DNA from: Squalus acanthias | Lineage: Eukaryota | DNA length: 64,000 nucleotides | NCBI GenBank assembly: GCA_030390025.1 | Contig: CM059431.1 | Location: 94,676,001-94,740,000 of the forward strand | Reading direction: 5' to 3' | In this document: piece by piece, positions 1-63,304 of the stretch | Position numbering within the stretch: the stretch's first letter is position 1 | How the letters are laid out: each line of letters starts with the position of its first letter | Notes under the pieces: generated by a model | What the model saw: only the letters and a program-made list of their open reading frames with translations | Told to the model about the DNA's origin: nothing | Database searches by the model: none | Made by a program: the position numbers and the translations under genes

Positions 1-284
1 TTAATGGAGGCGGGACGGGAGGCCAGGCAACCAACCCGATCCCAGGGAGCAGGTCGCTCATTTAAATATTATAATGAGGCTGCATGCCTCAGATTTTATC
101 TCTCTTCCAGCTACAGTATAATGCTGACTGAAAGGAAGATGTAAGTGCCTTTCCAGCACTGCTTGTGGGCCAGGAGAAGCAGGAGTGCTTCTACCCCGGC
201 CTTGCAAGCAAACCTGTTTCCCACTCCATGTGATTACCCCACCCCCAGCGATTGGACTTATCCCATGACTGGACCCCCTCGCTG

Positions 285-1380
285 ATCACCAACCCACCCC
301 GCACAATCACCGACCCACCCCGTGATCACCAACCCTCCCCCACTGTGATCACCGACCCCCCCCCCCCCCCGTGATCACCAACACCCCCCGTGATCACCGA
401 CACCCCCCGCAATCACCGACCCCCCCGTGATCACCGACCCTCCCCCAATGTGATCACCGACCCCCCCGTGATCACCGACCCTCCCCCCCCGTGATCACCG
501 ACCCCCCCCCGCAATCACCGACCCACCCCGTGATCACTGACCCTCCCCCCCGTGATCACCGACACCCCCGTGATCACCAACTGCCCCTGCAATCCCCGAC
601 TCTCCCCGTGATCACCGACCCTCCCCCCGTGATCACCGACCCTCCCCCCCGTGATCACCGACACCCCCCGCAATCACCGACCCCCCCGTGATCACCGACC
701 CCGCCCCGTGATCACCGAACCCCCCCGTGATCACCGACCCTGCCCCGTGATCACCGACTCTCCCCGTGATCACCGACACTCCCCGTGATCACCAACCCCC
801 CCCCGTGATCACCGACCCCCCCGTGATCAACAACCCTCCCCCCGTGATCACCGAGCCCCCCGTGACTACCGACCCCGCCCCGTGATCACCAACTCTCCCC
901 GTGATCACCGACACTCCCCGTGATCACCAACCCCCCCCGTGATCACCAACCACACCCGTGATCACCGACCCCCCCATGATCAACAACCCTCCCCCCCATT
1001 ATCACCGACCCCCCCCGTGATCACCGACCACCCCCGTGATCACCGACCCCCCCCGTGATCACCGACTCTCCCCGTGATCACCGACACTCCCCGTGATCAC
1101 CAACCCCCCCCCGTGATCACCGACCCCCCAGTGATCAACAACCCTCCCCCCATGATCACCGACCCCCCCGTGATCACCGACCCCGCCCCGTGATCACCGA
1201 CTCTCCCCGTGATCACCGACACTCCCCGTGATCACCAACCCCCCCCATGATCACCAACCCCCCCCCGTGATCACCGACCCCCCCCATTATCACCGACCCC
1301 CCCCGTGATCACCGACCCCCCCCCGTGATCACCGACCCCCCCCGTGATCACCGACCCCCCACATTATCACCGACCCCCCC
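285..1380. repeat. Minisatellite, ~18-22 bp unit gtgatcaccgac(c)n; resumes at 6350-6395
   Basis: Dozens of visible tandem copies with palindromic core gtgatcac and a variable C run. The array continues after the 3' LTR. Confidence 0.95.
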
Positions 1381-1608
1381 TGTCAGAAATCGCAACTTCT
1401 ACAAGAAGTAACTCAGGAAGTACTACTGGGCGGCCAGCTGGGGCGCTGTCCGGGGAGTATAAATACTCGGGCGTGGGCCCACCTTGAACAGAGACAACCT
1501 GGAAACAGGAAGTTAGTGACGGCTAACTAGACCGCCATGCTTTGTTACAAGTCGATTAAAGCCTTGATTTATGTTCAACCAAGTGCGTAGTGAGTCTTTA
1601 TTACGTCA
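1381..1608 (+). repeat. 5' LTR
   Basis: tgtcaga...ttacgtca; TATA-like tataaat at ~1458 and attaaa at 1555-1560. Confidence 0.95.
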
Positions 1609-1708
1609 ATTTAATCGACTTGGCATCGTCTCCACGCTTTGGGTGATTCGGAACAACCAGCTGCAACTCGAACCACAGAAGGGAACTAGGGCAAGAAACT
1701 GATCCACC

Positions 1709-4700
1709 ATGGAGAAACTCATAGACCCGCTCGTCTCGACCTGGACCCGAATGCACCTGCGGCAGCGAAGGTATGGAAGCATTGGTTTTGTACCTTTAGC
1801 AACTTTCTTGAAGAATGTGGGGCGGATGCCCCTAATAAGTTACGAATGCTTATTAACTACGTGTCCCCTCATGTGTATGACTATATTGAGGACTGTATAG
1901 ACTACGACACTGCTGTCCAAATTTTACAGCAGCTATATGTCAAGTCCCCGAATGAAATCTTTGCTCGACACCTACTGGCCACAACTCGGCAGCAGCCTGG
2001 GGAATCACTCGATGAATTCCTCCAGAATCTTCGCAGGCTCAGCAAGGATTGTAACCTTAAAGTGGTTACAGCTGAACAGTATCAAGAGGAACTAATCCGC
2101 GATTCCTTTATCAATGGGATTGCGTCCCCTTTTATACGTCCGCGCCTGCTGGAAAATAAAACCCTCAATTTACGGGCTGCTTATGACCAGGTGTGTTCCC
2201 TGGACTTGGCCAAGAAGAATGCAGACACTTATCTCCCACCACGTGCACAGGCGGCGGCTATCACCTTTAATCAGTCTTTCGGTAAGTCTCGGGCGGATGC
2301 CCCCGCTGATGTTGACTCTACTCTAACGGACGACGACCCTACCCTAGAGGCCTTCGCTGATGGCGACCCCGCCCTAGCAGCATCCTGGCAATCAGGAAGA
2401 AAGTGTTTCTTTTGTGGAGGGGCGTGCCATTACAGAAAACTTTGCCCAGCTCGTAATGTGACCTGCAATCATTGCAGCAAGAAAGGACACCTTTCCAAGG
2501 TATGCCAGTCACGGGCCTCTGCTAACAAGAAAGGCCGCTCCTCTAAAGTATACCGGTCAAGAGCTCCTGTTAGCTTCACAGCTGCTATCTATGGAGCTGC
2601 TCCTCCCCCAAGAACCACTGTTAAGGCTACAGCTGCCGAAGGGAAAATTGCCCCTCCTCCCATCACAGCTGTTTTTCCCCAAAGTTTGTCCCATGCAGCC
2701 ACGAGGGTTTCACTAAATGGGCACACTCTAAGCGCGCTAATCAACTCCTGCAGCTCTGACAGCTTCATTAGTAAGCGGGCTGTCAGCAGGTTGAAACTGC
2801 GCATTTATCCCTCGGACAGGGAGATTGCAATGGCTCTGACGACTCTGACCACCAATTCTTCTGTCTTGTCAACCTCATCCTCAATGGCCGCACTTATCTC
2901 TCCACCTGGCTCGGAGTACTCAAACTTATGCAGCGATGTGCTTCTGGGACAGGACTTCCAGAAGCAGCACAAGAGGCTCACTTTTGAGTTTGGAGGGTCA
3001 AGGCCGGAGCTTACCATTTCTAAGGTGCTGTTTTGTGCGCACTCGGTGGCCTTACTCGGTGAACCCTCCCTGTTTGCCAATCTTTCCCCCCGCTGTAAAC
3101 CCATAGCCATCAAATCGCGGTGCTTTAGCCAAGACGATCGAGCATTTATCGAGGCAGAAATCTCTCGCCTTTTAGTCGACGGTATTATCGAGCCGTGTTC
3201 ATCTCCCTGGCGGGCTCAAGTCGTCATTGTGAAAAATCCCTTAAAACATCAAACGTCTGTGTATCGATTATTCGCAGACTATTAATCAATATACTGATCT
3301 GGATGCCTACCCGCTACCCCGCATAGATGACATGGTCAACAACCTTGCCAAATACAAGGTATTTTCGACCTTCGATTTGAAAAGCGCGTACCATCAGGTG
3401 CCGCTGCAAGACTCCGACAAGAAGTATACGGCCTTTGAGGCCAATGGTCGGCTTTTTCAGTTTCGCCGCCTTCCATTCGGGGTCACCAATGGGGTGGCCG
3501 TCTTCCAACGGGCCATGGATGGCCTAGTCCGGCAAGAGAACTTGACAGATACCTTTCCGTATTTAGACAATATCACTATTGCCGGCCATGATCAAAAGGA
3601 GCATGACGCCAATCTTCAGAGATTTTTTGACGTACTCTGTCGTCGCCACTTAACGTTAAACGAATTCAAATCAGTGAAATCGGTGCCATCAGTGAACATT
3701 CCTGGCTACTGGGTGGGCAACGGTGTTATTAAACCGGACCCAGAGCGACTTCATCCACTTCAGGAGCTCCCTCCCCCTACGAACCTCGGCTCTCTTCGTC
3801 GGGCACTTGGCATGTTTGCTTATTACGCAAAGTGGATACCACACTTCTCCAATAAAATACAGCCCCTGCTCCATGCGAAGTCTTTTCCATTGAAAGCTAC
3901 GGCTATTTCTGCCTTCAACTTCCTCAAACGACAGCTGGAGAAAGCCACGCTTCGCCCCATTGACGAAAACCTTCCTTTTGTGGTCGAATGCGATGCATTG
4001 GAGGTGGCGATCTCGGCGACCTTGAATCAAGGTGGCCGACCCGTGGCATTCCTATCCAGAACCTTGCAGGGTAGCGAGCTCCATTACCCCCCCCGTCGAG
4101 AAGGAGGCTACGGCCATCATCGAGGCTGTACGCCAATGGGGTCATTTTCTTGCTCGGCGTCATTTTACGCTTATAACTGACCAGCGCTCCGTGGCCTTCA
4201 TGTTGGATAACCGGAGGCGCACGAAAATCAAAAACAATAAAATTCAACTCTGGAGGATGGAGCTGGCCGCCTTTGGATATACTATCCGTTACCGACCCGG
4301 CAAACAGAATGTGGCCCCAGATACCTTCACACGGGCATTTTGCTCCTCAATGTCAACATCGACTCTGGCGGATTTGCATATGGACTTATGCCATCCTGGC
4401 GTGACCCGTATGTTGCACTTTGTGCGCTCCAAAAATCTACCATTCTCAACAGAGGACGTAAAGAAAACATGCTCCTCCTGTAGGATTTGTGCAGAATTGA
4501 AACCACAATTCTTCCGCCCATCAGATGGCTTACTCAGACATGCAATGCAGCCTATGCAGAGGCTCAGCATAGACTTTAAAGGGCCATTGCCTTCGTCGAC
4601 ACGGAACACCTACCTACTTACGATGGTAGACGAGTATTCACGCTTTCCCTTCGCCTTCCCCTGTCCTAATATGCTTACCTCTACGGTAATTAAATGCCTC

Positions 4701-5372
4701 AATCAGGTCTTTTCCCTTTGCGGGACGGCCAATTTTATCCACACGGATCGGGGTCCCTCCTTTATGTCGAGTGAACTTAAAGGTTATCTCTCCCAATGGG
4801 GAATCTCCTCAAGTAAGACAACACCATATCACCCAATCGGCAACGGACAGGTTGAACGATACAATGCCATCATCTGGAATGCTGTCCATCTGGCACTGAG
4901 GTCACGCAACCTACCAGACCAGCAGTGGGAAACGGTGCTCCCTGACGTGTTACACTCTATCAGGTCTCTTCTTTCCACATCTACTAATGTCACGCCTCAT
5001 GAGCGATTCTTCAAATTCCGGCGTCGCTCTACACATGGGACGTCTCTACCGTCATGGTTGGTGGCTCCAGGCCCTGTGCTACTCCGGAGGTTCGTCCGGT
5101 CTGCCAAAAACGACCCTCTCGTTGACGAGGTGGAGTTAACGGAGGTAAACCCCACGTATGCGCACGTACAGTACCCTGATGGCAGGGAGGCCACCGTCTC
5201 GCTCAGAGATCTGGATCCCTGCCCAACCGGTCACATGGGCCCGAATGATGAAGGATCCCACGACGATGATGCCAACACTCTGCACCCCTATGAAAATGAC
5301 GCCCCACTTGGGACATCGAGGGATCGGCTGGCAGCGCCACCGGATCAACTCGGAGCCGGACGCTCCCCGTAG
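1709..5372 (+). pseudogene. Gypsy gag-pol polyprotein, frameshifted (ORF pieces 1709-, 1846-3285, 3332-4180, 4032-5372)
   Basis: Zinc knuckles CFFC..H....C and CNHCSKKGHLSKVC, protease ALINSCS, and RT motifs FDLKSAYHQV, LPFGVTNG and YLDN. RNase H ECDA..EKEA..TDQ; integrase HHCC (H..H..CSSCRIC) and DDE core (IDFKGP, TDRG, GQVER). Confidence 0.93.
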
Positions 5373-5527
5373 GATGGCCGCCAGAAGCCAGGATGCCGGA
5401 CAATCTCCAGCCACGACCCGGGATGAGGCCAGCTCTGCGCCTGTGGGGACCTGTACCTGGAGTCATGATATTCCCAGTCCTCCACAGGACGATCAAGACG
5501 ACGCGGACTCTACTGACTTACCGGTAC

Positions 5528-5982
5528 GGGCCAACACGGTGGCATAGTGGTTAGCACTGGTGCCTCACAGCGCCAGGGACCCGGGTTCGAATCTGGCCTC
5601 GGGTGACTGTCTGTGTGGAGTTTGCACATTCTCCCCGTGTCTGCGTGGGTTTCCTCCGGGTGCTCCGGTTTCCTCCCACAGTCCAAAAATGTGCGGGTTA
5701 GGTTGATTTGGCTATGATAAATTGACCCTTAGTGTTAGGGGGGGATTAAATATGTGGGGTTACGGGGATAGGAAGGGATATGTTAGGGGGAATTAAATAC
5801 GTGGGGTTACGGGGATAGGGTGGGATATGTGTCGGTGCAGGCTCGATGGGGATTCTGTGTGAGAGAGCAGGGACAGGGTACTGGATTTGGATGATCAGCC
5901 ATGATCGTATTGAATGGTGGAGCAGGCTCGATGGGCCGAATGGCCTACTCCTGCTCCTAGTTTCTATGTTTCTATGTTTCTA
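5528..5982 (+). mobile_element. tRNA-derived V-SINE (HE1-like) inserted in the Gypsy 3' region
   Basis: A box tggcatagtgg, B box gggttcgaatc, V-domain-type core tgtgtggagtttgcacattctccccgtgtctgcgtgggtttcctccggg. CR1/HER1-type tail gggccgaatggcctactcctgctcct followed by (tttctatg)n. Confidence 0.88.
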
Positions 5983-6121
5983 AGCAACCCAGGGACCAGG
6001 ACATGGTCCAGGGAGACGTGACTTCCGGTCCCAAGCAGAGAGCTAAACGACTACAGCTATTTTTGGTCTGCCTAGTCCGTTAAAGGAAGACTGGACTTCC
6101 AAACCTTTTAGGGAGGAAGAA

Positions 6122-6349
6122 TGTCATAAATCGCAACTTCTACAAGAAGTAACTCAGGAAGTACTACTGAGCGGCCAGCTGGGGCATTGTCCGGGGAGTA
6201 TAAATACTCGGGCGTGGGCCCACCCTGGGCAGAGACAATCTGGAAACAGGAAGTTAGTGACTGCTAACTAGACCTCCATGCTTTGTTACAAGTCGATTAA
6301 AGCCTTGATTTATGTTCAACCAAGTGCGTAGTGAGTCTTTATTACATCA
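6122..6349 (+). repeat. 3' LTR
   Basis: tgtcata...ttacatca, about 95% identical to 1381-1608. Confidence 0.95.
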
Positions 6350-6906
6350 CCCCCGTGATCACCACCCACACTCCCCCCCCGCAATCACCAACACCCACAT
6401 CTGTGCCCCGATCTCTCTCTGAACCCCTTCAATTACCCACCAAATCACGCTGTATCCAACCCAATCGCCGCCCTCACAATCTCTATCCAACAGTAGGAAC
6501 GTACCTGCTCCTGGGCTGCAACCTCCCTTGCAGCGTTCCCCACCCGACGGAGCAAAGTCTATCAATCAGGCTGGCGTCCAGGCAGTGAACCTGTTAAAAA
6601 AACACACTGCACGGAGTTCGGCCCGACCAGAACTCTTGACCCCCCTTGCAAATCCCGCCCCAGTAAATATCAGGACCGATGATTCTTAGATGGTTTTAAA
6701 ATGAAGATTGAGGAGTTTTATTGAACAGTTAACTTGAATGACACAGAGAGCAGCAATAATATGCAAAGTTAAGCTGGGGAGCAGAGACGTCTCAGCTAAA
6801 TGATTTCCATATAGAGCAGCTGAAACATATCACCAGGTCTCTCCTCACACACAAAGATGGGAATGGATGAGGGGAAGCAGGCAGGGTGTTGTGCTCTTTA
6901 CTTTAA

Positions 6907-7091: not shown

Positions 7092-7098
7092 TCACTAT

Positions 7099-10000
7099 GG
7101 TAGCATAGTGGTAATGTCACTGGGTTAGTAATCCAGAAGCCTGGACTAATGATCCAGAGACGTGAGTTCAAATCACCACCACGGCAGCTGGGGAATTTAA
7201 ATTCAGTTAATTAAATAAATCTGGAATAAAAAGCTAGTATCAGTAATGGTAACCATGAAACTATCGGATTGTCGTAAAAACCCATCTGGTTCACTAATGT
7301 CCTTTAGGGAAGGAAATCTACCGACCTTACCTGGTCTGGCCTATATGTGACTCCAGACCCACAGCAATGTGGTTGACTGTTAACTGCCCTCTGAAATGGC
7401 CTAGCAAGCTACTCAGTTGTAACAAATCGCTACGTAACAAAATAATAAGAATGAAACTGGATGGACCACCCGGCATCGACCTTAGCACCGGCTACAAACA
7501 TGGCAACAACACACCCAGCCAAATCAACCCTGCAAAGTCCTCCTCACCAACATCTGGGGACTTGTGCCAAAATTGGGAGAGCTGTCCCACAGACTGGTCA
7601 AGCAACAGCCTAACATAGTCATACTCACAGAATCATACCTTTCAGCTAATGTCCCTTACTCCTCCATCACCATCCCTGGGTATGTCCTGTCCCACCGGCA
7701 GGACAGACCCACCAGGGGTGGTGGCCCAGTGGTATACAGTCGGGAAGGAGTGGCCTTGGGAGTCCTCAACATTGATTCCGGACCCCATGAAGTCTCATGG
7801 CTTCAGGTCAAGCATGGACAAGGAAACCTCCTGCTGATTACCACCTAGCGCCCTCCCTCAGCTGATGAATCAGTACTCCTCCATGTTAAACACCACTTGG
7901 AAGAATCACTGAGAGTAGCAAGGGCACAGAATGTACTCTGGGTGGGGGACTTCAATGTTCATCACCAAGAGTGGCTCGGTAGCACCACTACTGGCCGAGT
8001 CCTGAAGGACATAACTGCTAGTCTGGGCCTGCGACAGGTGGTGCGTGAACTAACAAGAGGGAAAAACCTACTTGACCTCGTCCTCACCAATCTACCTGTC
8101 GCAGATACATCTGTCCATGACAGCATTGGTAGCAGTGACCACCACACAGTCATTGTGGAGACGAAGTCCCGTCTTCACACTGAGAACACCCTCCATCGTG
8201 TTGTGTGGCACTACCAACGTGCTAAATGGGATAGATTCAGAACAGATCTAGCAGCTCAAAACTGGGCATCCCATGAGGTGCTGTGGGACATCAGCAGCAG
8301 CAGAATTGTATTCCTCCACAATCTGTAACCTCATGGCCCAGCATATCCCTCACTCTACCATTACCACCAACCCTGGTTCAACAACGAGTGTAGAAAAGCA
8401 TGCCAGGAACAGCACCAGGCGTACCTAAAAATTAGGTGCCAACCTGGGGAAGTTGCAACACAGGACTACATGCATGCTAAAAAGCGGAAGCAGCATGCTA
8501 TAGACAGGGCTAAGAGATCCCACAATCAACGGATCAGATCAAAGCTCTGCAGTCCTGCCACATCCAGTTGTGAATGGTGGTGAACCATTAAACAACTAAC
8601 GAGAGGAGGAGGCTCCAAGAATATCCCCATCCTCAATGATGGTGGAGCCCAGCACGTGAGTGCAAAAGACAAGGCTGAAGCGTTTGCAGCCAGAAGTGCC
8701 GAGTGGATGATCCATATTGGCCTACTCCCAAGGTTTCAGCCAATTCGATTCACTCCACATGATATCAAGAAAGGGCTGAGCGCACTGGATACAGTAAAGG
8801 CTATGGGCCCCGACAACATCCCGGCTATCGTGCTGAAGACTTGTGCTCCAGAACTAGCCGTGCCTCTAGCCAAGCTGTTCCAGTACAGCTACAACACTGG
8901 CATCGATCCGACAATGTGGAAAACTGCCCAGGTATGTCCTGTCCACAAAAAGCAGGACAAATCCAACCCGGCCAATTACCGCCCCATCAGTCTACTCTCA
9001 ATCATCAGCAAAGTGATGGAAGGCGTCATCGACAGTGCTATCAAGCGGCACCTGCTCACTGATGCCCAGTTTGGGTTCCGCCAGGACCACTCAGCTCCCG
9101 ACCTCATTACAGCCTTGGTCCAAACATGGATAAAGGAGCTGAATTCCAGAGGTGAGGTGAGAGTGACTGCCCTTGACATCAAGGCAGCATTTGACCGAGT
9201 CTGGCATCAAGGAGCCCTAGTAAAACTGAAGTCAATGGGAATCAGGGTGAAAACGCTCCACTGGCTTGAGTCATACCTAGCACAAAGGAAGATGGTTGTG
9301 GTATTTGGAGGTCAATCATCACAGCCCCAGGCCATCACTGCAGGAGTTCCTCAGGGCAGTGTCCTAGGCCCAACCATCTTCAGCTGCTTCATTAATGACC
9401 TTCCCTCCAACATAAGGTCAGAAATGGGGATGTTCGCTGATGACTGCACAGTGTTCAGCGCCATTCGCAACTCCTCAGATAATGAAGCAGTCCATGCCCG
9501 CATGCAACAAGACCTGGACGACGTTCAGGTTTGGGCTGATAAATGGCAGGTAACATTTGCGCCACAGAAGTGCCAGGCAATGACTATCTCCAACAAACGA
9601 GAGTCTAACCACCTCCCCTTGACATTCAATGGCATTACCATCGCCGAATCCCCCACTATCAACATCCTGGGGGTCACCATTAACCAGAAACTTAACTGGA
9701 CCAGCCACATAAATACTGTGGCAACAAGAGCAGGTCAGAGGCTAGGTATTCTGCGGCGAGTGTCTCACCTCCTGACTCCCCAAAGCCTTTCCATCTACAA
9801 GGCACAAGTAAGGAGTGTGATGGAATACTCTCCACTTGCCTGGATGAGTGCAGCTCCAACAACACTCAAGAAGCTCAACACCATCCAGGACAAAGTAGCC
9901 CGCTTGATTGGCACCCCATCCACTACCTTGAACATTCACTCCCTCCATCACCGGCATACCGTGGCTGCAGTGTGTACCATCTACAAGATGCACTGCAGCA

Positions 10001-10909: not shown

Positions 10910-12046
10910 GGGGGGCAAGTAAAGTAATGGGTGTCAATTATCCCACTTCCTTCCTGCCGTGTCCCCATATTAACCTGCTTTTTTGAGCAGGCGAGCAGGA
11001 CACCCACAGGAAGGAAGCGGGATCCTGTTTTAATTATGCAGATTGCCTCCAATGATGTCATCAGAACCTGATCTGCAATATTAACCTGAGGCCGTGGGAA
11101 GGGGCAATGTCGTCTTCACGGTCAGGCAAAATCCGCCGGGAGCCAGATCCTGGGTCAGAAGAAGCCCGGCAGTTAAGTTTAAAATTTATTTTTCAGGTTT
11201 TCTTGTTGGGCAGGAGGCGCAGGAGTGCTCCTCTAGGCCTCACAAGGAGGCCTTGGGCGTCCCCTGGATCGCGGCAAGATCCACCCTCCCCAGCCCTGAT
11301 TGCTGACAGACCCCTCCCCGCCCTGTCCCCCCCTCCCCACTCCGCCCCCCCCCACTCCCCACTCCGCCCTGCCCCCCCCTCCCCACTCCGCCCTGCCCCC
11401 CCTCCCCACTCCGCCCCTCCCCACTCCGCCCTGCCCCCCCCTCCCCACTCCGCCCCCCCCACTCCCCACTCCGCCCTGCCCCCCCTCCCCACTCCGCCCC
11501 CCCACACCTCACTCCGCCCTGCCCCCCCCACTCCGCCCCCCCCACTCCCCACTCCGCCCTGCCCCCCCCCACTCCGCCCCCCCCCCACTCCCCACTCCGC
11601 CCCTCCCCACTCCGCCCTGCCCCCCCACTCCCCACTCCGCCCTGCACCTCCCCACTCCGCCCCCACCCCCCCCCCCACTCCGCACCCCCCCCCCCACTCC
11701 GCACCCCCCCCCCCCCCCGCCCACTCCCCACTCCGATTATGGAAAGACTTCCCACCCCCGGCCCTGATTGAAGCCTGTTCACAGCCAGCCCTCCCCTCCC
11801 CTCCCGATTGCGGCTTCGAGTCCCGAATTGCCGAGGACTGCTGCGGCCTCCTGCCGCTTGCTTGCGCTCCCGCCTGCCAGTTGGCTGTCAATCTGGCCGA
11901 CTGTCGGGCGGGAGACTGTATCATGTTAATTAAATGAGGACCTGCCGTTGAGATCAGCAGGGCTTCCTCGTCCCTGTCCTTGCCGGGTTCTTTGGCCAAT
12001 TACAGCCTCCCCCACGCACTCCCACCTCCTCGCAAATATCGGGGCC
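10910..12046 (+). mobile_element. MITE-like non-autonomous element with internal C-rich minisatellite
   Basis: Hairpin core at 11201-11246 shared with 161-209 and 59750-59801; right end aaatatcggggcc. Left boundary approximate. Confidence 0.45.
11310..11735. repeat. C-rich minisatellite (ccccactccgccc variants)
   Basis: Visible tandem copies; the minus strand is G-run rich. Confidence 0.9.
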
Positions 12047-15486: not shown

Positions 15487-17043
15487 CTCTCCCTGTTCCT
15501 CCTGCCAAAATGCATCACCTCACACTTCTCTGTTTTAAATTCCATCTGCCACTTGTCTGCCCATTCTGCTAGCCTTTCTATGTCCTGTTGCAGTCAATTG
15601 GTATCATCCTCACTGTTTGCAACACCCCCAAGTTTGGTGCCATCAGCAAATTTAGAAATTCTACTCTGTATTCCAATATCCAGGTCATTTATATAAAAAA
15701 GCAGTGGCCCCAGCACTGACCCTTGGGGAACACCACTGTCTACCATCCTCCAGTCTGATAAACAGCCATTTACCACAACTCGCTGATTTCTGTCCTTAAG
15801 CCAATTCCTTATCCAAGCTGCCACTGACCCACCTATTCCATGAGCCTCAATTTTGTTAACCAGCCTTCTATGTGGTACTTTGTCAAATGCCTTCCTAAAA
15901 TCCATGTAGACAACATTCATTGCATTCCCATCATCAATCCTCCCTGTTACTTCATCAAAAAATTCAATTAGATTAGTCAAACACGATCTGCCTTTTACAA
16001 ATCCATGTTGGCTCTCCTTAATTAGCTTAAATCTCTCCAAGTGCCCATTAATTTTTTCCTTGATTATTGATTCTAAAACTTTACCCATCACTGATGTTAA
16101 ACTGATCGGCCAGTAGTTACCAGGATTGTCCTTACACCCTTTCTTGAACAATGGTGTCACATTTGCCAGTTTCCAATGTTCAGGCACCTTCCCCGTATCT
16201 AGGGAAGATTGGAAAATTATGGCAAGTCCTTCCGCTATCTCCTCCCCCAATTCCCTTAGCAACCTAGGATGCAAGCCATCTGGACCAGGCGACTTATCCA
16301 CTCTAAGCAAACCCAGCCTTTCTCATACATCCTGTCTATCAATTTTCACCCCTTCTATTGCTTCTACCTTTTCCACTTCTACCAGCATCCACCTCCTTAG
16401 TAAACATTGATACAAAGTACTCATTGAGTATAACAGCAGAAAACGCTGGAAAAACTCAGCAGGCCAGGCAGCATCCGTGGAGAGAGCAACAGATCAGGTC
16501 GAAGACCTTCCGTCAGAACTGGAAAAAAGCAGGAAATGGAATAGATATTCACTTTAAAATGTCACTTTAATTCACCGCTTCAGTCCCACTCAGACCTCAC
16601 CGTCCTCGGCCTCTTGCATTGTTCCACGGAAGCTCAGCGTAAGCTCGAGGAACAGCACCACATCTTTCGATTAGGTACTCTATAGCCCTCTGGACTCAAC
16701 ATAGAGTTCAACAATTTCAGAACAAAACCTCGGCCCCTATCACTGATATATATATATTTTTTTCCACACTTTTTGTTTGGCCTTTTTTTTCTTCCCTCCC
16801 ACATGGCAGCTGTCCTTCATTCTGCCAGCACAATTCACACTTCATCTGAGCCATCCTTTGTTCCTTAACCTGTCACATTACCACCTCCTCTTGCCTTGAA
16901 TATGTCTTAATGTCCCTCAATGTCTCTTCATCTCTCCTGCTTTCTATCCTATCACTGACATTCCCTTTTGTTCTTTCATCCCCTCCCCCATTTCCCAGCC
17001 CCTAAACCTGCGTTAAAATCTATTCCATTTCCTGCTTTTGTCC

Positions 17044-17080: not shown

Positions 17081-20000
17081 CTGTTTCGCTCTCCACAGAT
17101 GCTGCCTGGCCTGCTGAGTTTTTCCAGCGTTTTCTGTTGTTATTTTGGATTTCCAGCATCCGCAGTATTTTGCTATTGTATTAGTGTTTGGTTCACTGCC
17201 ACCTCTCTTCTAGGAATGCCCACCTTGAAGTTCTGCTCTTCTCTTCGACGGGATTTCCATTTGTCTCTTCAACCTTGTTCATCTTCACTGCTTTCAGTTT
17301 CCCTTCTCGTGTTTGATCAGGTATCTGCCAAGACTCGGTTTCACAGCCACATCTCTTTCCTCAGCAACTGTCTCCGGTTCCGACTTACTCCACGTGGATT
17401 CCAACTAAACTTCCACCCTTCGTGTTTCTGATCCACCCAGGATTAAAAATATCTCCACGCTCAACGCCATGCGGCGCCACATGAACACTCTCGACCTCTC
17501 TCTTCAGCAGCACTGACGCACTCTATCTCAAAGCTGTCCGGGTCCACAATTCCATTTCATCCTTCGACTCATCCGACGCTTCAACAAAAAACTTTTTTTC
17601 TTCCTTTCTGATGTCAAGGATCGCAAGCTTCATCAACTCTTGAACACCAACGCCCCTCCGGAACCTTCTTCCCCTTCACTTTCCTCTGACCCCCCTTCTC
17701 CCAATCTCACCCCCTGCCGCGTTTTCACTATCCCTTCTGACCTTCCCCTCTCTGACCTTGAACGATCAGTCCTCAGCAAAGGCCTGAGCTTCATCCCCTT
17801 ACGCCCCCACCTCAATGAATTTCGAGCTCGGCACGATGCTGAGCTCTTTTTCCGCTGCCTTCCTCTCCGTGCCCACTTCTTTGGCCAGGAGTCTTCCCCC
17901 CGCACGGCTGACCCTTTCTCCTGTTTTCAGAATTCTCGTTCCACCTGGACCCCTCCCTCTGGCCTCTTACCCTCTCTAGATCTTTTCATTGCTAACTGCC
18001 GCCGTGACATCGGCCGTCTCAATTTCTCTGCTCCCCTCACTCACTCCAACCTACCTCCCTCTGAACTTGCAGCACTCCATTCTCTCAGATCCAACCCCGA
18101 CATTGTTATTAAACCTGCTGACAAGGGTGGTGCTGTTGTTGTTTGGTGAACCAACCTCTACCTAGTGGAAGCTGTACGCCAACTCTCCGACACCTCCTCC
18201 TACCTCCACCTGGACCATGACCCCACTACCGAATATCAAGCCACCGTTTCCAAGACTGTCACTGACCTCATCTCCTCTGGAGATCTTCCCCCCACGGCCA
18301 CCAACCTCATAGTTCCCCAACCCCGCACAGCCTGCTTCTACCTCCTTCCCAAGATCCACAAACAGGACTGCCCTGGTAGACCCATCGTTTCAGCCTGTTC
18401 TTGCCCCACGGAACTTATCTCTTCCTATCTCGACTATTTTTTCTACCCTTGTTCAGTCTCTTCCCACCAACATCCGCGACTCTTCCGACGCCCTCCACCA
18501 CTTTAACAGTTTCCAGTTTCCCGGCACCAACCGCTTCCTTTTCACTATGGACGTCCAATCCCTCTACACCTCCATCCCCCACCAGTGTGGCCTGAGGGCG
18601 CTCCGCTTCTTCCTTGAATAGAGGCCCAACCAGTCCCCATCCACCACCACCCTCCTCCGCCTGGCTGAACTTGTTCTCACATTGAACAACTTCTCCTTTG
18701 AATCCACTCATTTCCTCCAAATCAAAGGTGTTGCTATGGGTACCTGCATGGGTCCTAGCTATGCCTGCCTTTTCGTGGGATATGTGGAACACTCTTTGTT
18801 CCAGTCCTACTCGGGTCCCCTCCCTCACCTCTTTTTCCGGTACATTGATGACTGTATCGGTGCCGTCTCCTGCTCTTGCCCTGAACTAGAAAATTTCATT
18901 CACTTTGCTTCCAATTTCCACCATTCCCTCACCTTCACATGGTCCATCTCCGACTCTTCCCTTCCCTTCCTCGACTTCTCCGTCTCCATCTCTGGGGATA
19001 GGTTATTGACAAACATTCACTACAAGCCCATAGACTCCCACAGCTATCTGGACTACACTTCCTCCCACCCCGCCTCCTGTAAGGACTCTATTCCATTCTC
19101 CCAGTTTCTCCGTCTCCGCCGCATCTGCTCTGACGATGCCACCTTCCATACCAGTGCTTCCGACATATCTTCCTTTTTCCTCAACCGAGGATTCCCCTCT
19201 ACGGTGGTTGACACGGCCCTTAACCATGTCGGTTCTATCTCCCACACTTCTGCCCTCACCCCTGCCTCCCTCCCGGAACCACGATAGGGTTCCCCTTGTC
19301 CTCACCTTTCACCCCACCAGCCTCCACATTCAACGGTTCATCCTCTGCCATTTCCACCACCTCCAGCGTGATCCCACCACCAAACGCATCTTCCCCTCAC
19401 CTCCCTTTCAGCATTCCGCAGGGACCGCTCCCTCCGCGACACCCTAGTCCACTCCTCTATCACCCCCAGCACCCCTTCCCCTTCACCCGGCACCTTCCCA
19501 TGCAAGTATAGGAGATGCAACACATGCCCTTATACCTCCCCCCTTTCCACTGTCCAGGGCCCCAAACACCCCTTCCAGGTGAAACAGCGATTTACTTGTA
19601 CTTCTTGCAATTTAGTATACTGTATTCGCTGCTCACGATGTGGTCTCCTCTACATTGGGGAGACCAAACGCAGATTGGGTGACCACTTTGCGGAACACCT
19701 CCGTTCAGTCCGTAAGGGGAACCCTGAGCTCCCGGTGGCCTGTCACTTTAATTCACTGCTCCACTCCTACTCAGACCTCACCGTCCTCGGCCTCTTGCAT
19801 TGTTCCACGGAAGCTCAGCGTAAGCTCGAGGAACAGCACCTCATCTTTCGATTAGGCACTCTATAGCCCTCTGGACTCAACATGAGTTCAACAATTTCAG
19901 ATCATAACCTCGGCCCCTATCACATATATGTATATATTTTCTACAGTTTTTGTTTGGCCTTTTTTTCTTCCCTCCCACATGGCAGCTGTCCTTCATTCTG

Positions 20001-34703: not shown

Positions 34704-35510
34704 ATCCAACATAACCAGGCTGTCTTTAAGCACCACATGACTGCAGCACTCTCTCCTCTGATGATTCCTAAAACTGTCTGACTGGTATCCATTCAGGTGT
34801 GCTTGTACATAGATCCACAAACTCAGCTTTAACCTTCCACAAGATCTTTTCCCAACTTGGATACACCCATCAGGGTGCACCTCTCTGCACCATACAGAAA
34901 TGTCAACCAGTTGCTAGCCTTGTGTGATCGCTTTATGTTCCAGACCTTCAGCTGCATGACCAAGTGGTACGTGACTCCCAATACCATCCGAGCATCACCC
35001 AGGCTACCATGTTGCCATCCACTTAGTCATTGCAGTGGGTGTCAAAGCTGGAACCCCAGAGCTGGGGGATGGAATGACAATTGGAATATTGAGTAGCGGA
35101 CAGAGGAGCATGTTAGAATGTGAGGATGTTAAAGGCAGCTATGCTGATACAATGTGAGCATCTGTGGATTCAGTGAGGTAACACTGACAAAGAATTTATG
35201 GCAGATTACAGCTTCTGTTTCAAGGCAACAGGATGACGTCCATTGTTGGGGATTGCCATGGAGAGTCACTTGCCTGGGGAAGTGATCTTGTATACATACA
35301 TGGCAATCATCAGTATTTCACATTGATAGCCAGCATTTTAGAAGCCCAATCAGCACATCCTGTCCACTTCCGTACTTATTTTAACCTTTCCTAAATGTGC
35401 ACTGCTTTTACTCCAGTAAACAACTTAACAACAAGAACAGAGGAAGGAACATACGAACAGGAATAGGCCATTCAGCTCCTCGAGCTTGTTCCACCATTCA
35501 ATTAGATCAT

Positions 35511-42000: not shown

Positions 42001-42481
42001 TCTTGTATGAATAAAATATACTTGTACTTGAAGAAGAAATAGCTCTGTAGTTGCCTTAAGATTTTTGGAAGATAAAGGAATGAGTATTAGAGACATAGGA
42101 ACTGGGTTAGGCTAGTCAGTCCTCGAGCCTGTTACGCCATTCAGCTAGATCATGGCTGATCTGTATCTTAATTCCATTTACCCACCTTGATTCCATAACC
42201 ATGTAACTTTCTATGATTCTATCCCTTAATACATTTACCGAACAAAAATCTATCAATCTTAGTTTAGTAGAGACATTTCTAAAACTACTTCAGAAAAGAC
42301 TTTCCAAAATTACTTTAAAAGAAAGAAAGGACTTGCATTCATATGGCGCATTTCACGATCCCAGGTCGTCCCAAAGCGATTTACAGCCAATGCAGTACTT
42401 TTGAAGTGAAGTCACTTTTGTGATATAAAAATAGCTGTTGGAAGAAAATACTTGCTGTGTTACCCTGTGGAAAGTACCTGG

Positions 42482-45829: not shown

Positions 45830-48300
45830 TTACAATTGGCTGGAGGTTGTGCTTGAGGTAGAGGGCTCAGCTATGATGCCTGGGGCTGATGATGGGCCAG
45901 CAATAGGATTATCAAATGTGGAAATTACTGGTGTAGTTGCACGCTGTAGGTCTTGGGCCTTCTGTTGTGACATCTTTTGAAAGATATTTAATATTGTTGT
46001 TTGTTTAAATAATTTGGGCTTTTCTTTCACTAATCTTTCCCGAATTCTATAGACCTGCAGTATTTCTTCTTCACTTATGAAGCTTCGTTGCTCTAAGGCG
46101 TGAATTAATTCTTGACAAAGATTGATTGCTTTGTCAATCGGCACTTTTTCGACTTGATCACAGGCATCATCATCCTCCTCACTGCTTTCATCCTTTTCTT
46201 CTGGATGCAAAACCCTCTATGATTTCTTCATCTGTCACTGCATGCACAATGGGAGCATCGTTGTCTATGTCCATGACTTCTGCGACATCGTCCTCATTCA
46301 ATTCCTGCGCAGCTTTGCAAGTCAGCCCTCTTGTATAATCTAAAAGTTGAGCAATCATTGCTTTCTCCCTGGACACACGAAAGCCTTAAGTCCTGAGGAG
46401 CATCATCGTCAGCAAACAGAGTTGATGGCCAGATGTTATGCCAAGCATTGACCAAGGTGTCTGCAGTTACCAAGTTCCATGCATCCGCAGCTGTCCATAT
46501 GGCGTCCTTGATAGAGAAACATAGAAGATAGGAGCAGGAGTAGGCCATTCGGCCCCTCGAGCCTGCTCCGCCATTTAATGAGATCATGGCTGATCATCCA
46601 AATTCAGTACCCTATCCCTGCTTTCTCCCCATATCCCTTGATCCCTTTAGCCTTAAGAAATATATCTAACTCCTTCTTGAATATATTTAATGAGTTGGCC
46701 TCAACTGCCTTCTGTGGTAGAGAATTCCACAGGTTCATCATTCTCTGGGTGAAGAAATTCCTCCTCATCTCAGTCCTAAATGGCTTACCCCTTATCCTTA
46801 GACTGTGACCTCTGGTTCTGGACTCCCCTGCCATCGGGAACATCCTTCCTGCATCTAGTCTGTCTAGTCCTGTTAGAATTTTATAAGTTTCAATGAGATC
46901 CCCTCCCATTCTTCTAAACTCTAGCGAATACAAGCCCAATCGTCCCAATCTCTCTTCATACGTCATTCCTGCCATCCCAGGTATCAGTCTGGTAAATCTT
47001 CGCTGCACTCCCTCCATGGCAAGAACATCCTTCCTCAGATAAGGCGACCAAAACTGCACACACTACTCCAGGTGTGGTCTCACCAAGGCCCTGTACAACT
47101 GCAGCAAGACATCCTTGCTCCTGTACTCGAATCCTCTCGCTATGAAGGCCAACATACCATTTGCCGCCTTAACCGCCTGCTGCACCTGCATGCTTACCTT
47201 CAACGACTGGGAATAAAAGCTTTTGAGAATGCTTTTATTCCCATGCCTGTGTTCACAGCATTAAGTAAACACCTTGTTTTTGTACAGGCACTTCATCGAT
47301 CTCAAAATTCCTTGGTCCATTGGCTGTATCAGTGATGTAACATTTGGAGGCAAGTAGATTCCATGGACATTATCCTTTACCAAAAGCTCAGCATCGGGAT
47401 GTGCTGAGCAATTGTCTAGCAGCAAGTATATTTTGCAGTTTTCCTCAAGGCCAGCTTCTGTGCGATGAGCACGCGCCTGAGGGACAAAATTCTTCTCAAA
47501 CCAGTTCAGAAAGGTTACCCTGGTTACCCATGCTTTCCTATTGGCATAATAATGCACTGGCAATACTCTCAAATCCTTGAAACATCTTGGACGCTGGCTT
47601 CTCCCAATGACCATAAGCTTACACTTATGTGTCCCAGCCGCATTTGCAGCAGCAAGCACAGTCCTTGGCGTCTTTAATACCTGTTGGCTGCGTTTCTTCT
47701 GCTGCTGCTAATGTCTTTCGCGGTACGTAGCGCCAAAACAGTGCTGTCTCGTCAGCATTGTACATTTGCTCAGCTGAAAGGTTTTCATCAGCAATTAGTT
47801 TGATGAACTCATCAATATAATTTTCAGCTGCCTCATGATCTGCTCAGGCTTTCTCACCACATACTTTCAGTTGCCTGATGCCATGACGCCTTTTAAATTT
47901 GGCTAGCCAACCATGGAGTTTCAATCCCCAGTTGTGCATGGAATATTTTAGCTTGTTGCACCACCATTGGGCCAGACAAAGGAACCTTTTCACTTCGCCT
48001 CTGTCGCCACCATTCCATCACTGCTCGATCCAAATTATCACGTTTTGGCTTATGCATACTTTTTCTCTTACTCATTTCCTTATGAACATCACTTTCCGCA
48101 TAAAACGTCATGAGTTCTTTCTGTTTTCTAATATCATAGATGGTGGAGAGTCCAACACCATGCTCCTCACTCAATCTTCTCACTGAAGCACCTCTATCTA
48201 ATCTCTGAAGTAACTCCACCTTCTTGGCAATTGAAAGTGAACTATGCTTCCTCTTTCCTTTATATGAACCCATTGGGGTATCTGTTGGCCTTTTTGACAT
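45830..48300 (-). pseudogene. Tigger transposase (disrupted by frameshifts and a CR1 insertion)
   Basis: ORF pieces 47893-48300, 47261-47659, 46294-46510, 46188-46376 and 45830-46210. Confidence 0.88.
46511..47210 (-). mobile_element. CR1 (HER1-like) 3' fragment inside Tigger
   Basis: QFWSPYLRKDVLAMEGVQRRFTRLIPG...RTRGH...; nearly identical to 61840-62650. Confidence 0.9.
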
Positions 48301-62655: not shown

Positions 62656-63304
62656 TTTGCTTGGGGCTGATCAGTAAAAGTTGTTAGCTTGAACAAGCTT
62701 GCTTACAGTAGGGTTCACGAGCAAACTGCAGACCCCCATCAAAAACAAACTGGACTTGGTATCAATTTACTTAGATCCAAATTTCCTCTGAGCATAATTT
62801 ACTGAAAATCCCAATTTGTAAAACTGGAAACCTATATTAAAATTTACCAAGGAAATGAGTTCCAAGAACAAAAATGTTTGGGAAATATTTAATTGACTAT
62901 AGTTCCAGAAGGATAGAATCCCTGATCAGGCACGGAGCAGCACTCGTAGGGAGCGCTAGTTGGGAAATCGCAGGCCCACTGCCCCTTGATTTTCCTTTCA
63001 TTTATAGAAAGTCAGGAGCTGCAGGGCTGCTATTTCTTGACCAGCGCTTCGAGCGAGTGCCACTCCTCACTCGGAATGTCCAATTGAAGAATCAGCCTCT
63101 TTGAATGAACTGAAGACTAGATTTTTCTGTCCCTACCTTATGAATGGGAGGAAACTCCAGCCCTGTACTCAGTGAACAGCCAACTAGCTGCAGTAGTAAC
63201 AGACTTTTATAAAAATTGGTAAAATACGCATGTTATGGCTCTCCGCTTCCCTCTAACAGTATATTAGTCCCACCAGTTGGTAGTGCAGCCCACACACTCA
63301 CATA

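What the first reader, a model, noticed from the sequence alone, without database searches (positions are those of the whole stretch)
1548..1622. Gypsy primer-binding position pairs with its own LTR: candidate self-priming and/or 5'-LTR poly(A)-masking switch
Seen: one base after the 5' LTR end (1608) there is no TGG-starting tRNA PBS. Instead tttaatcgacttg (1610-1622) is the exact 13-nt reverse complement of caagtcgattaaa (1548-1560) inside the LTR, which contains the ATTAAA poly(A)-like signal. That 13-mer is unchanged in both LTRs. Established: fission-yeast Tf1 primes minus-strand synthesis by pairing its own RNA 5' end to the PBS, and HIV-1 occludes its 5' poly(A) signal in a hairpin. Inference: the duplex can form only at the 5' LTR, so it could supply a tRNA-independent primer and also block premature polyadenylation. 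The partner lies ~90 nt downstream of the TATA-like box, so unlike Tf1 it may be internal to the transcript.
Basis: partly seen in the sequence, partly recalled or inferred. Interest (0 to 1): 0.8.

Follow-up and report, generated by a model that had tools for sequence, protein, structure and literature searches.

The report
Self-priming site of a gypsy retrotransposon
The 13 bases just after the left repeat of this dead gypsy-type retrotransposon pair perfectly with a stretch inside the repeat, and distant relatives keep that pairing with different letters, so the element most likely starts copying itself from its own RNA instead of a host tRNA, a trick already known from yeast Tf1.

Summary
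Window 1610-1622, one base after the 5' LTR (1381-1608), is the exact reverse complement of 1548-1560 inside the LTR; 0 of 300 shuffles reach 13 nt.

The element (1381-6349) is a decayed Ty3/gypsy copy.

The decisive evidence comes from relatives fetched from metagenome contigs. Of 26 loci that hold a gag start and its upstream DNA:
- 20 have an exact 11-18 nt pairing in the same layout: LTR end CA, usually one spacer base, then the PBS.
- 5 have an imperfect version at the same place.
- 1 has none.

The paired letters differ between families. On a 23-sequence alignment, 13 of 16 pairs change on both sides, and 91.6% of cells pair against 68% in shuffles and 29-48% when slid.

This fits Tf1-type self-primed reverse transcription, here in a lineage without a chromodomain whose named protein relatives are marine and freshwater invertebrates.

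The poly(A)-masking idea is not general: a canonical hexamer lies in the paired arm in only 11 of 23 sequences.

The transcription start was not mapped, so whether the primer is the RNA's 5' end is open.

Verdict: a new member of a known kind, of moderate interest.

The parts
1376..1380 (.). Possible 5-bp target-site duplication (ccccc); its partner is at 6350-6354
   Evidence: It lies in a C-rich satellite, so it is weak evidence.
1381..1608 (+). 5' LTR, 228 nt, TG...CA ends
   Evidence: Direct repeat D3, 95% identical to 6122-6349; alignment.
1458..1465 (+). TATA-like box TATAAATA, 90 nt upstream of the paired arm
   Evidence: Present in both LTRs. Its use as a promoter was not tested.
1548..1560 (+). 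Candidate self-primer: the LTR arm of the duplex. It ends in TTAAA and is followed by gcc.
   Evidence: Exact reverse complement of 1610-1622. The homologous arm is seen in relatives.
1554..1559 (+). ATTAAA poly(A)-like hexamer inside the arm
   Evidence: A canonical hexamer lies inside the arm in 11 of 23 aligned sequences.
1561..1586 (+). Weak hairpin that starts at the first base after the arm
   Evidence: Loop-only fold. A hairpin starts at loop base 1-2 in 17 of 23 sequences against 5.8 expected from shuffles.
1585..1606 (+). U5 hairpin (9 bp with G.U pairs in the fold) ending 3 nt before the PBS
   Evidence: Present in the MFE and centroid structures.
1609..1609 (+). Single spacer base (A) between the LTR end CA and the PBS
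   Evidence: In 18 of 66 inverted repeats found in the relatives, the 3' arm starts exactly 1 nt after a CA.
1610..1622 (+). Primer-binding site: the 3' arm of the duplex
   Evidence: Position 1617 is G here, but mostly A in contigs of four public runs.
1690..3285 (+). gag-protease reading frame. The ATG at 1709 is out of frame with it, so the frame is interrupted near the start of gag.
   Evidence: Asp_protease_2 at E 3e-4, below the Pfam cut-off. The gag N-terminus is homologous to relatives.
3245..4180 (+). Reverse transcriptase and the first part of RNase H, in a second frame
   Evidence: RVT_1 at E 3.9e-23, RT_RNaseH_2 at E 1.3e-11.
4026..5372 (+). Rest of RNase H plus integrase, in a third frame; no chromodomain
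   Evidence: rve at E 1.1e-17 and Integrase_H2C2. No Chromo family even at E <= 1.
5861..5979 (.). Unrelated short repeat inside the element, with copies elsewhere in the window
   Evidence: blastn matches at 62539-62657, 46515-46627, 35452-35510 and 42088-42161.
6110..6121 (+). Polypurine tract agggaggaagaa directly before the 3' LTR
   Evidence: Relatives have a similar purine run before their LTR start.
6122..6349 (+). 3' LTR; it carries the second copy of the 13-mer at 6289-6301

Best explanation
The duplex 1548-1560 / 1610-1622 is the primer-PBS helix of a self-primed Ty3/gypsy retrotransposon. It works like fission-yeast Tf1.

Proposed steps, all inferred:
1. In the genomic RNA, the LTR-derived arm (in or at the start of R) folds back onto the PBS. 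The PBS lies one spacer base after U5.
2. The element's own RNase H cuts at the inner end of the helix, after ...TTAAA and before gcc. A small hairpin abuts this point.
3. The freed 3'-OH primes minus-strand DNA across the spacer, U5 and the rest of R.
4. The strand then transfers to the 3' R.
5. During plus-strand synthesis the primer is copied back into DNA. This rewrites the PBS to match the primer in every cycle, which would explain why the two arms co-vary so cleanly.

Shown here: the exact pairing, its fixed position, its recurrence and covariation across a broad lineage, and the enriched abutting hairpin.

Inferred: that the helix forms in RNA, the cleavage, the priming, and the position of the transcription start.

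The window copy itself is dead. Its LTRs are 95% identical, its coding region lies in three frames, and it carries a foreign repeat insertion.
For: **In the window**
- Exact 13-nt complementarity starts 1 nt after the LTR; 0 of 300 shuffles reach it.

**Recurrence in relatives**
- 80 relatives were fetched with an integrase alignment.
- A scan of all 572,528 nt found 66 exact inverted repeats of 11 nt or more. In 18 of them the 3' arm starts exactly 1 nt after a CA, and in all 18 the 5' arm ends in AAA followed by gcc, acc or gct.
- 27 loci hold a gag N-terminus, and 26 of those have usable upstream DNA. Of the 26, 20 have an exact 11-18 nt pair, 5 have an imperfect pair at the same spot (one bulge, one G.U, or 1-2 mismatches), and 1 (L036) has none.

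**Covariation**
- The arms differ between families. Examples: CAAGTCGATTAAA here, TTTAGCTAGTTAAA in L005, TGAGTCGTTTAAA in L004, TTGATGATGATAAAA in L065, CTTTTGTTTGTTAAA in L069.
- On alignment A3 (23 sequences), 91.6% of cells pair, against 68.1 +/- 1.5% in shuffles (0 of 500 reach it) and 29-48% when slid by 1-3 columns.
- 13 of 16 pairs change on both sides. There are 76 double-change cells against 19.6 expected.
- Near-identical copies also differ by a matched pair: L018 against L030, and L003 against L005.

**Structure**
- A hairpin starts at the first or second loop base in 17 of 23 sequences against 5.8 expected. Among 18 distinct families it is 12 against 4.35, P about 1e-4.

**Spread in the tree**
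- The signature lies on both sides of the midpoint root of a quick integrase tree. That tree has 52 rows: the window plus the 51 of 80 loci with 280 aa or more aligned.

**Literature**
- Tf1 and Tj1 use a PBS complementary to the mRNA 5' end, and self-priming is implicated from fungi to vertebrates (passages of PMC4600332, and PMC6317226).
- About half of Tf1 cDNA keeps a full PBS copy reverse-transcribed at its 3' end (passage of PMC11042837). This fits the idea that the PBS is rewritten from the primer.
Against: - No RNA evidence. No listed run is on record as RNA. The laid runs are contigs, which cannot show starts or ends, and no pile-up of ends was reported.
- In the window, the only clear TATA box is 90 nt upstream of the arm. 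That predicts a start near 1488-1492, which would make the arm internal to the transcript, unlike Tf1.
- In contigs of four public runs, position 1617 is mostly A (for example 22,163 of 37,172 depth in X2). A matching C>T at 1553 is not among the 40 rows shown (25 rows were hidden). Many family copies may therefore carry a C.A mismatch. Both sites are CpGs, so this may simply be decay of dead copies.
- The host tRNA set could not be searched. The tRNA test used only one tRNA-like gene in the window (7 nt at best) and a published list of 189 12-mers.
- The 223-nt leader as a whole is not unusually stable (z = -0.54).
- One assessable relative (L036) shows nothing.
Confidence: 0.8

Rival explanations
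1. The duplex mainly exists to hide the ATTAAA poly(A) signal in the 5' copy of R, as with the HIV-1 poly(A) hairpin. Minus-strand priming would then be done by something else.
For: - ATTAAA (1554-1559) lies inside the arm and is followed by a GU-rich stretch.
- A canonical hexamer lies inside the arm in 11 of 23 aligned sequences.
- The PBS arm exists only near the 5' end.
Against: - In 12 of 23 sequences the arm holds no canonical hexamer. Three of these have one only in the loop (L004, L005, L076), and 9 have none. The pairing is kept in all of them.
- The 3' arm always sits exactly at the PBS position, next to the LTR end. Masking does not require that position.
- No other PBS candidate exists. 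In most relatives the gag ATG follows within 0-20 nt.
Confidence: 0.07
2. The helix is a structural RNA element of the leader, serving packaging, dimerisation, or control of gag translation from the AUG just downstream. The real primer is an unidentified host RNA.
For: - The helix ends 0-20 nt before the gag ATG in most relatives.
- There is a conserved abutting hairpin.
- No direct evidence of priming was obtained.
Against: - Its 3' arm occupies the canonical PBS slot with a fixed 1-nt spacer in 18 exact cases.
- PBS sequences differ widely between families, so no single conserved host primer fits.
- The same layout defines proven self-priming in Tf1.
Confidence: 0.1
3. The complementarity is a chance or inherited palindrome without function.
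For: The arms are AT-rich, and the window copy is a dead element.
Against: - 0 of 300 shuffles reach it.
- The pairing recurs in 25 of 26 assessable relatives.
- There are 76 double-change cells against 19.6 expected.
Confidence: 0.01

Closest known systems
Tf1 / Tf2 / Tj1 of fission yeasts (self-primed Ty3/gypsy elements)
   Same: - The PBS next to the 5' LTR is complementary to an LTR-derived stretch of the element's own RNA rather than to a tRNA.
- The helix length (11-19 bp here) is in the range reported for Tf1. The figure of 11 nt is recalled, not read here.
- Extra stem-loops lie near the helix. Titles of Lin & Levin 1997 and 1998, seen in the reference list, describe a complex structure and a U5-IR-like stem-loop.
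   Different: - No chromodomain.
- The named protein relatives are animals, not fungi.
- Whether the primer is the first bases of the transcript is unknown. In the window the TATA box is 90 nt upstream.
- The primer end TTAAA | gcc and the one-base spacer are features of this lineage. They were not compared with Tf1.
Vertebrate Tf1/sushi-group elements (Butler et al. 2001)
   Same: They are said to use self-primers, and they occur in vertebrates (statement in PMC6317226; the original paper was not seen).
   Different: Those are chromoviruses. This element and its relatives show no chromodomain. Phylogenetic placement relative to them was not tested.
Steamer and Steamer-like elements of bivalves (Mag lineage, C-clade)
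   Same: - Small size: about 4.8-5 kb for Steamer-like elements (PMC11046912), 4,969 bp here.
- Short LTRs: 153-219 bp (PMC8905726).
- A single gag-pol ORF: MchSLE1 and the relative L030, 1,234 aa.
- Aquatic animal hosts.
   Different: Steamer has a tRNA-Leu PBS, TGGTGTCAGAAG, directly after the LTR (PMC8905726 passage). That motif is absent from the window and from all loci held at the time.
HIV-1 poly(A) hairpin in R
   Same: In the window and in 10 other aligned sequences, a poly(A) hexamer sits in a helix.
   Different: - Here the helix partner is the PBS, which is outside R and present only at the 5' end.
- The hexamer is not a constant part of the helix across relatives.
- The HIV comparison is recalled, not read here.
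Predicted self-priming plant lineages (Tcn1 chromoviruses, TAR Ty1/copia)
   Same: Self-priming is inferred from LTR-PBS complementarity in whole lineages; it is predicted for 12% of the plant elements analysed (PMC6317226).
   Different: Different superfamily or clade and different hosts. No sequence comparison was made.

Membership tests
Ty3/gypsy (Metaviridae) LTR retrotransposon | LTRs with TG...CA ends, a polypurine tract before the 3' LTR, and domain order PR-RT-RNase H-IN | tested here: met
   The best solved-structure match of the intact relative L030 is the Ty3 Gag-Pol polyprotein, E 7.3e-66.
Self-primed LTR retrotransposons (Tf1 type, defined by mechanism) | The sequence at the PBS position next to the 5' LTR is complementary to a stretch of the element's own LTR | tested here: met
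   13 of 13 nt in the window. 25 of 26 assessable relatives show it. Covariation.
Self-primed LTR retrotransposons (Tf1 type, defined by mechanism) | No PBS complementary to a tRNA 3' end | tested here: inconclusive
   - No TGG abuts the LTR.
- The candidates at 1621 and 1640 have no match in a list of 189 metazoan tRNA 3' 12-mers.
- The one tRNA-like gene in the window pairs over 7 nt at most.
- The host tRNA set was not available.
Self-primed LTR retrotransposons (Tf1 type, defined by mechanism) | The primer is the first bases of the transcript (start of R) | not testable with these tools
   - No RNA holder is listed, and contigs cannot show starts.
- The window's TATA box is 90 nt upstream of the arm.
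- In L049, a TATATATA lies 28 nt upstream of the arm.
Self-primed LTR retrotransposons (Tf1 type, defined by mechanism) | RNase H cuts the RNA duplex to free the primer's 3'-OH | not testable with these tools
   Only indirect evidence: a conserved AAA | gcc/acc junction and an abutting hairpin.
Tf1/sushi group of chromoviruses | Chromodomain at the integrase C-terminus | tested here: not met
   No Chromo family at E <= 1 in the window integrase ORF or in the intact L030 polyprotein. No Chromo (PF00385) entry among the precomputed Pfam domains of the 120 listed homologues.
Tf1/sushi group of chromoviruses | Placement inside that clade in an RT/IN tree with reference elements | not tested
   No named reference sequences could be brought in. 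The tree holds only the window and metagenome loci.
Steamer-like elements (Mag lineage C-clade) | tRNA-Leu PBS TGGTGTCAGAAG directly after the LTR; LTR starting TGTAACA | tested here: not met
   The motif is absent from the window and the loci. The LTR starts TGTCAGA. The feature itself is taken from a PMC8905726 passage.
Poly(A)-occluding leader helix (HIV-1-like) | The poly(A) hexamer is a constant part of the helix across relatives | tested here: not met
   The hexamer lies in the arm in 11 of 23 sequences, only in the loop in 3, and nowhere in 9.

The most novel reading that the evidence does not exclude
In the window's family the self-primer is internal to the transcript. Transcription would start about 30 nt after the TATA box, near 1488-1492. 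The primer would then have to be cut out of the RNA at both ends of the helix, or be used with a roughly 58-nt 5' tail. The same helix would also hide ATTAAA only in the 5' copy of R. One 13-bp duplex would thus both start reverse transcription and prevent premature polyadenylation, an arrangement not described for Tf1.
Probability: 0.15. Interest if true: 0.7.

Novelty: new member of a known kind. Interest (0 to 1): 0.45.

Why it matters
Self-priming frees an LTR retrotransposon from needing a particular host tRNA.

Here the signature is not a quirk of one copy. It is a conserved, co-varying feature of a whole chromodomain-less gypsy lineage. Its named protein relatives come from cnidarians, molluscs, crustaceans, echinoderms, tunicates and a rotifer, at up to 77% identity to the window's integrase ORF.

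Practical consequence: annotation pipelines that look only for tRNA-type PBS will report 'no PBS' for these elements. A simple rule finds the site instead: LTR end CA, one base, then the reverse complement of an LTR stretch ending TTAAA.

It also gives a natural set of covarying helices, with a fixed cleavage junction and an abutting hairpin, for studying how a retroelement RNase H recognises an RNA-RNA duplex.

In four literature searches I found no description of self-priming for such a metazoan non-chromoviral lineage. Subscription papers, notably Butler et al. 2001, and Repbase could not be seen.

Tried and rejected
- **Own genome:** none is held for this window, so family copies in the host could not be compared.
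- **Public runs:** no RNA holder is listed. The four laid runs are contigs. No pile-up of starts or ends was reported, and loose ends at 1410, 1486 and 1491 look like diverging subfamilies. Neither the transcription start, the poly(A) site nor linkage of 1553 with 1617 could be read. One contig of X13 reads T at 1553; another seems to keep C.
- **Pattern scans for the arm plus gcc:** 5 loci in genome contigs and 38 in viral contigs. All look like chance hits in prokaryote or phage DNA; 0 of 43 have a PBS-like complement within 150 nt.
- **Earlier findings of this scan:** nothing.
- **Papers not held:** PMC1369541 and PMC230564.
- **First LTR-based test:** it gave 5 apparent negatives among 15 relatives. 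For L003, L004 and L009 the repeat-defined LTR end had been cut by the contig end, and the pair was found at the true end. L067 and L080 are imperfect.
- **LTR pairs by self-BLAST:** found in only 18 of the 53 loci of 4,000 nt or more (n is my count).
- **Loci without a detectable gag start:** of those checked, L039, L025 and L062/L063 among others have fragmented ORFs and were not assessable. L057, the closest integrase relative after L001, holds only the RT-to-IN part.
- **Tree:** the careful search did not finish, so only the quick tree was used.
- **Clade naming:** naming the lineage (Mag, Cigr-1 or other) from papers failed.

Full report
**1. What is in the window**

Bases 1381-6349 are an LTR retrotransposon of 4,969 bp.
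- The LTRs are 1381-1608 and 6122-6349: 228 nt, 95% identical, with TG...CA ends.
- A polypurine tract lies at 6110-6121.
- ccccc lies on both flanks. The element sits inside a C-rich satellite with a unit of about 19-20 nt, so this says little about a target duplication.
- Pfam finds protease, RVT_1, RT_RNaseH/RT_RNaseH_2, Integrase_H2C2 and rve in the order PR-RT-RH-IN, spread over three reading frames. The ATG at 1709 is out of frame with the gag frame.
- An unrelated short repeat sits at 5861-5979.

The copy is therefore decayed. The intact relative L030 has one gag-pol ORF of 1,234 aa, and its best solved-structure match is Ty3 Gag-Pol, E 7.3e-66. This is a Ty3/gypsy element.

**2. The observation**

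It is correct in every point.
- 1609 is a single A. 1610-1622 is the exact reverse complement of 1548-1560.
- The 13-mer is unchanged in the 3' LTR, at 6289. Its complement occurs nowhere else in the 64 kb.
- ATTAAA is at 1554-1559, and TATAAATA starts at 1458, 90 nt upstream.
- No shuffle of the 30 nt after the LTR reaches 13 nt of complementarity (0 of 300).
- The RNA 1548-1640 folds with this stem closing a loop. The loop holds a U5 hairpin (1585-1606) 3 nt before the PBS. Energy is -23.0 kcal/mol, z = -3.0.
- A longer 223-nt leader is not unusually stable as a whole (z = -0.54), although the stem is still in its best fold.

**3. Relatives**

The integrase ORF has 1,361 homologues at E <= 1e-3. 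The best named ones are invertebrate proteins:
- Gigantopelta aegis, 77% identity
- Nematostella vectensis, 73%
- Xenia sp., 72%
- also Paramuricea, Oratosquilla, Hyalella, Styela, Hydra, Biomphalaria, Mytilus, Anneissia, Argonauta and Seison

None of the 120 listed homologues carries a chromodomain entry. Neither the window ORF nor L030 hits one even at E <= 1.

An alignment of 22 sequences was used to fetch 80 loci from metagenome contigs.

**4. The decisive test**

*First pass.* Self-BLAST found LTR pairs in 18 of 53 loci of 4,000 nt or more. Among 15 of these relatives:
- 9 had an exact 11-17 nt complement between the bases just after the LTR and a stretch 20-55 nt before the LTR end (0 of 300 shuffles each).
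- L076 had 9 nt.
- 5 had none.

Three of the 5 (L003, L004, L009) were artefacts of contig-limited LTR ends.

*Unbiased scan.* A scan of all 572,528 nt found 66 exact inverted repeats of 11 nt or more. In 18 of them the 3' arm begins exactly one base after a CA, where about 4 are expected if that position were random. In all 18 the 5' arm ends in AAA followed by gcc, acc or gct.

*Assessable loci.* Using gag N-termini to define which loci can be assessed, 27 loci have a gag start and 26 of those have usable upstream DNA. One of the 26, L014, is counted through a permuted contig.
- 20 have an exact 11-18 nt pair.
- 5 have an imperfect one at the same place: L052 has a bulge, L067 and L068 one G.U, L076 one mismatch, L080 two.
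- L036 has none.
- L049 and L074 also have pairs but no detectable gag start.

Several of the remaining loci were checked and are fragments with broken ORFs.

**5. Covariation**

The arms differ between families while the layout stays fixed. Examples of the 5' arm:

| Source | 5' arm |
|---|---|
| window | CAAGTCGATTAAA |
| L001 | TAAGTTGAATAAA |
| L005 | TTTAGCTAGTTAAA |
| L004 | TGAGTCGTTTAAA |
| L065 | TTGATGATGATAAAA |
| L069 | CTTTTGTTTGTTAAA |
| L016 | ATTATGTTGCTGATTAAA |

On a MAFFT alignment of 23 sequences (A3), with 16 pairs drawn:
- 91.6% of cells form standard pairs, against 68.1 +/- 1.5% in shuffles (0 of 500) and 29-48% with the partner slid by 1-3 columns.
- 13 of 16 pairs change on both sides (1 of 500 shuffles).
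- There are 76 double-change cells against 19.6.

The structure was drawn from these sequences, which favours it somewhat. The size of the effect and the slid controls leave little doubt.

Nearly identical copies also differ by matched pairs (L018 against L030/L037; L003 against L005).

In a quick integrase tree of 52 rows, the window pairs with L001 (support 96). The signature lies on both sides of the midpoint root (the careful search did not finish).

**6. Further anatomy**

- A hairpin that starts at the first or second base after the 5' arm appears in 17 of 23 loop folds, against 5.8 expected from shuffles. Among 18 distinct families it is 12 against 4.35, P about 1e-4. It often reads gcct...aggc or acct...aggt.
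- The inner end of the primer helix is thus a junction between two helices, with a conserved ...AAA | g/a-cc step. This is a plausible recognition point for the cut that frees the primer.
- The spacer after CA is A in most sequences.
- The gag ATG follows the PBS arm within 0-20 nt in most relatives, but only after 86 nt in the window.

**7. Mechanism**

The best reading is self-primed minus-strand synthesis as in Tf1. I read the following in passages:
- Self-priming uses a 5' segment of the element's own mRNA as primer. It was first shown for Tf1, is proposed for Tj1, and has been implicated from fungi to vertebrates (PMC4600332).
- Self-primers are described for the Tf1/sushi group of yeast and vertebrates, and are predicted for the plant Tcn1 and TAR lineages (PMC6317226).
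- Titles in those reference lists state that RNase H cleaves an RNA duplex and that a complex structure and a U5-IR-like stem-loop are needed. I did not see those papers.
- About half of Tf1 cDNA keeps a full PBS copy reverse-transcribed at its 3' end (PMC11042837).

From that I infer that the PBS is rewritten from the primer in each cycle. This would produce exactly the clean covariation seen, and a sharp outer end of the helix equal to the primer's length. That in turn argues, indirectly, that the primer's 5' end is at or near the start of the arm.

**8. What speaks against, or stays open**

- The transcription start is not known. The window's TATA box predicts a start about 58 nt upstream of the arm. 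By contrast, in L049 a TATATATA lies 28 nt upstream of the arm in a U3 of only 44 nt.
- The sequencing-run route gave no RNA holder and only contigs.
- In those contigs, 1617 is mostly A in all four runs, while 1553 C>T is not among the 40 rows shown (25 rows were hidden). One X13 contig reads T at 1553 and another seems to keep C.
- Both sites are CpGs. The data fit either a T:A sister subfamily or CpG decay of dead copies, and I draw no covariation claim from them.
- 1623 and 1624, just past the helix, are mostly different in the family. The 'tggcatc' at 1621 is therefore not conserved.

**9. The poly(A) idea**

A canonical AATAAA or ATTAAA lies inside the arm in 11 of 23 sequences, only in the loop in 3, and nowhere in 9, yet the helix is kept in all. 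Masking of the 5' poly(A) signal may be a side effect in the window's family, but it is not what the lineage conserves. The constant part is TTAAA at the primer's 3' end.

**10. tRNA alternative**

- No TGG abuts the LTR.
- The two TGG-starting candidates, at 1621 and 1640, have no counterpart in a published list of 189 metazoan tRNA 3' 12-mers (supplement of PMC13524379).
- The one tRNA-like gene in the window pairs over 7 nt at most.
- The host's tRNAs were not available. The stronger argument is that PBS sequences differ widely between families and track their own LTRs.

**11. Comparison and novelty**

- It works like Tf1.
- It is not a member of the Tf1/sushi chromoviruses on the one defining feature I could test, the chromodomain, which is absent. 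Tree placement with named references was not possible.
- It is not Steamer-like in its PBS. Steamer elements carry a tRNA-Leu PBS (PMC8905726), and that motif is absent here.
- Four literature searches found no paper describing self-priming in a non-chromoviral metazoan gypsy lineage. Butler et al. 2001, Lin & Levin 1997 and Repbase could not be read, so prior description cannot be excluded.

I file it as a new member of a known kind, with moderate interest.

Noticed in passing
window 240-1380 and 6350-6400: The element is inserted in a long C-rich satellite with a unit of about 19-20 nt (gtgatcaccgaccccccc-like). There are 25 aligned copies of a 215-nt register at 19-20 nt spacing.
   Followed up: no
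window 4026-5372: The integrase ORF of this copy is 77% identical to a protein of the deep-sea snail Gigantopelta aegis and 72-73% identical to cnidarian proteins. Such high identity across phyla hints at horizontal spread of the lineage. The host of the window is not known to me.
   Followed up: partly
window 5861-5979; also 62539-62657, 46515-46627, 35452-35510, 42088-42161: A short interspersed repeat, 76-91% identical between copies. One copy lies inside the retrotransposon's 3' untranslated part.
   Followed up: no
window 7094-7186: ARAGORN calls a 93-nt tRNA-Thr(agt)-like sequence. It is possibly a tRNA-derived repeat rather than a gene.
   Followed up: no
window 11287-11765 and 16560-16702 / 19741-19883: A second tandem-repeat block, and a further pair of 143-nt direct repeats 3,181 nt apart at 96% identity. 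The pair is possibly another small LTR-like element.
   Followed up: no
L001, L009, L014, L016, L049 (metagenome loci): These contigs run integrase - one LTR - PBS - gag. That is either tandem elements sharing a single LTR or assemblies collapsed through the LTR. Tandem copies separated by one LTR are reported for Tf1/Tf2 insertions at PBS homology (PMC11042837).
   Followed up: no
L008, L014, L017, L018, L030 and others: In many relatives the gag start codon lies 0-5 nt after, or even overlaps, the PBS arm. The primer helix would then sit right at the start of translation. In the window the distance is 86 nt.
   Followed up: partly
window 1381-2000, public runs X1, X2, X13, X19: The family is held by runs of at least eight coded organisms at similar word shares (0.24-0.36). 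It reaches very high summed contig depth in one of them (about 1e5 in X2).
   Followed up: no
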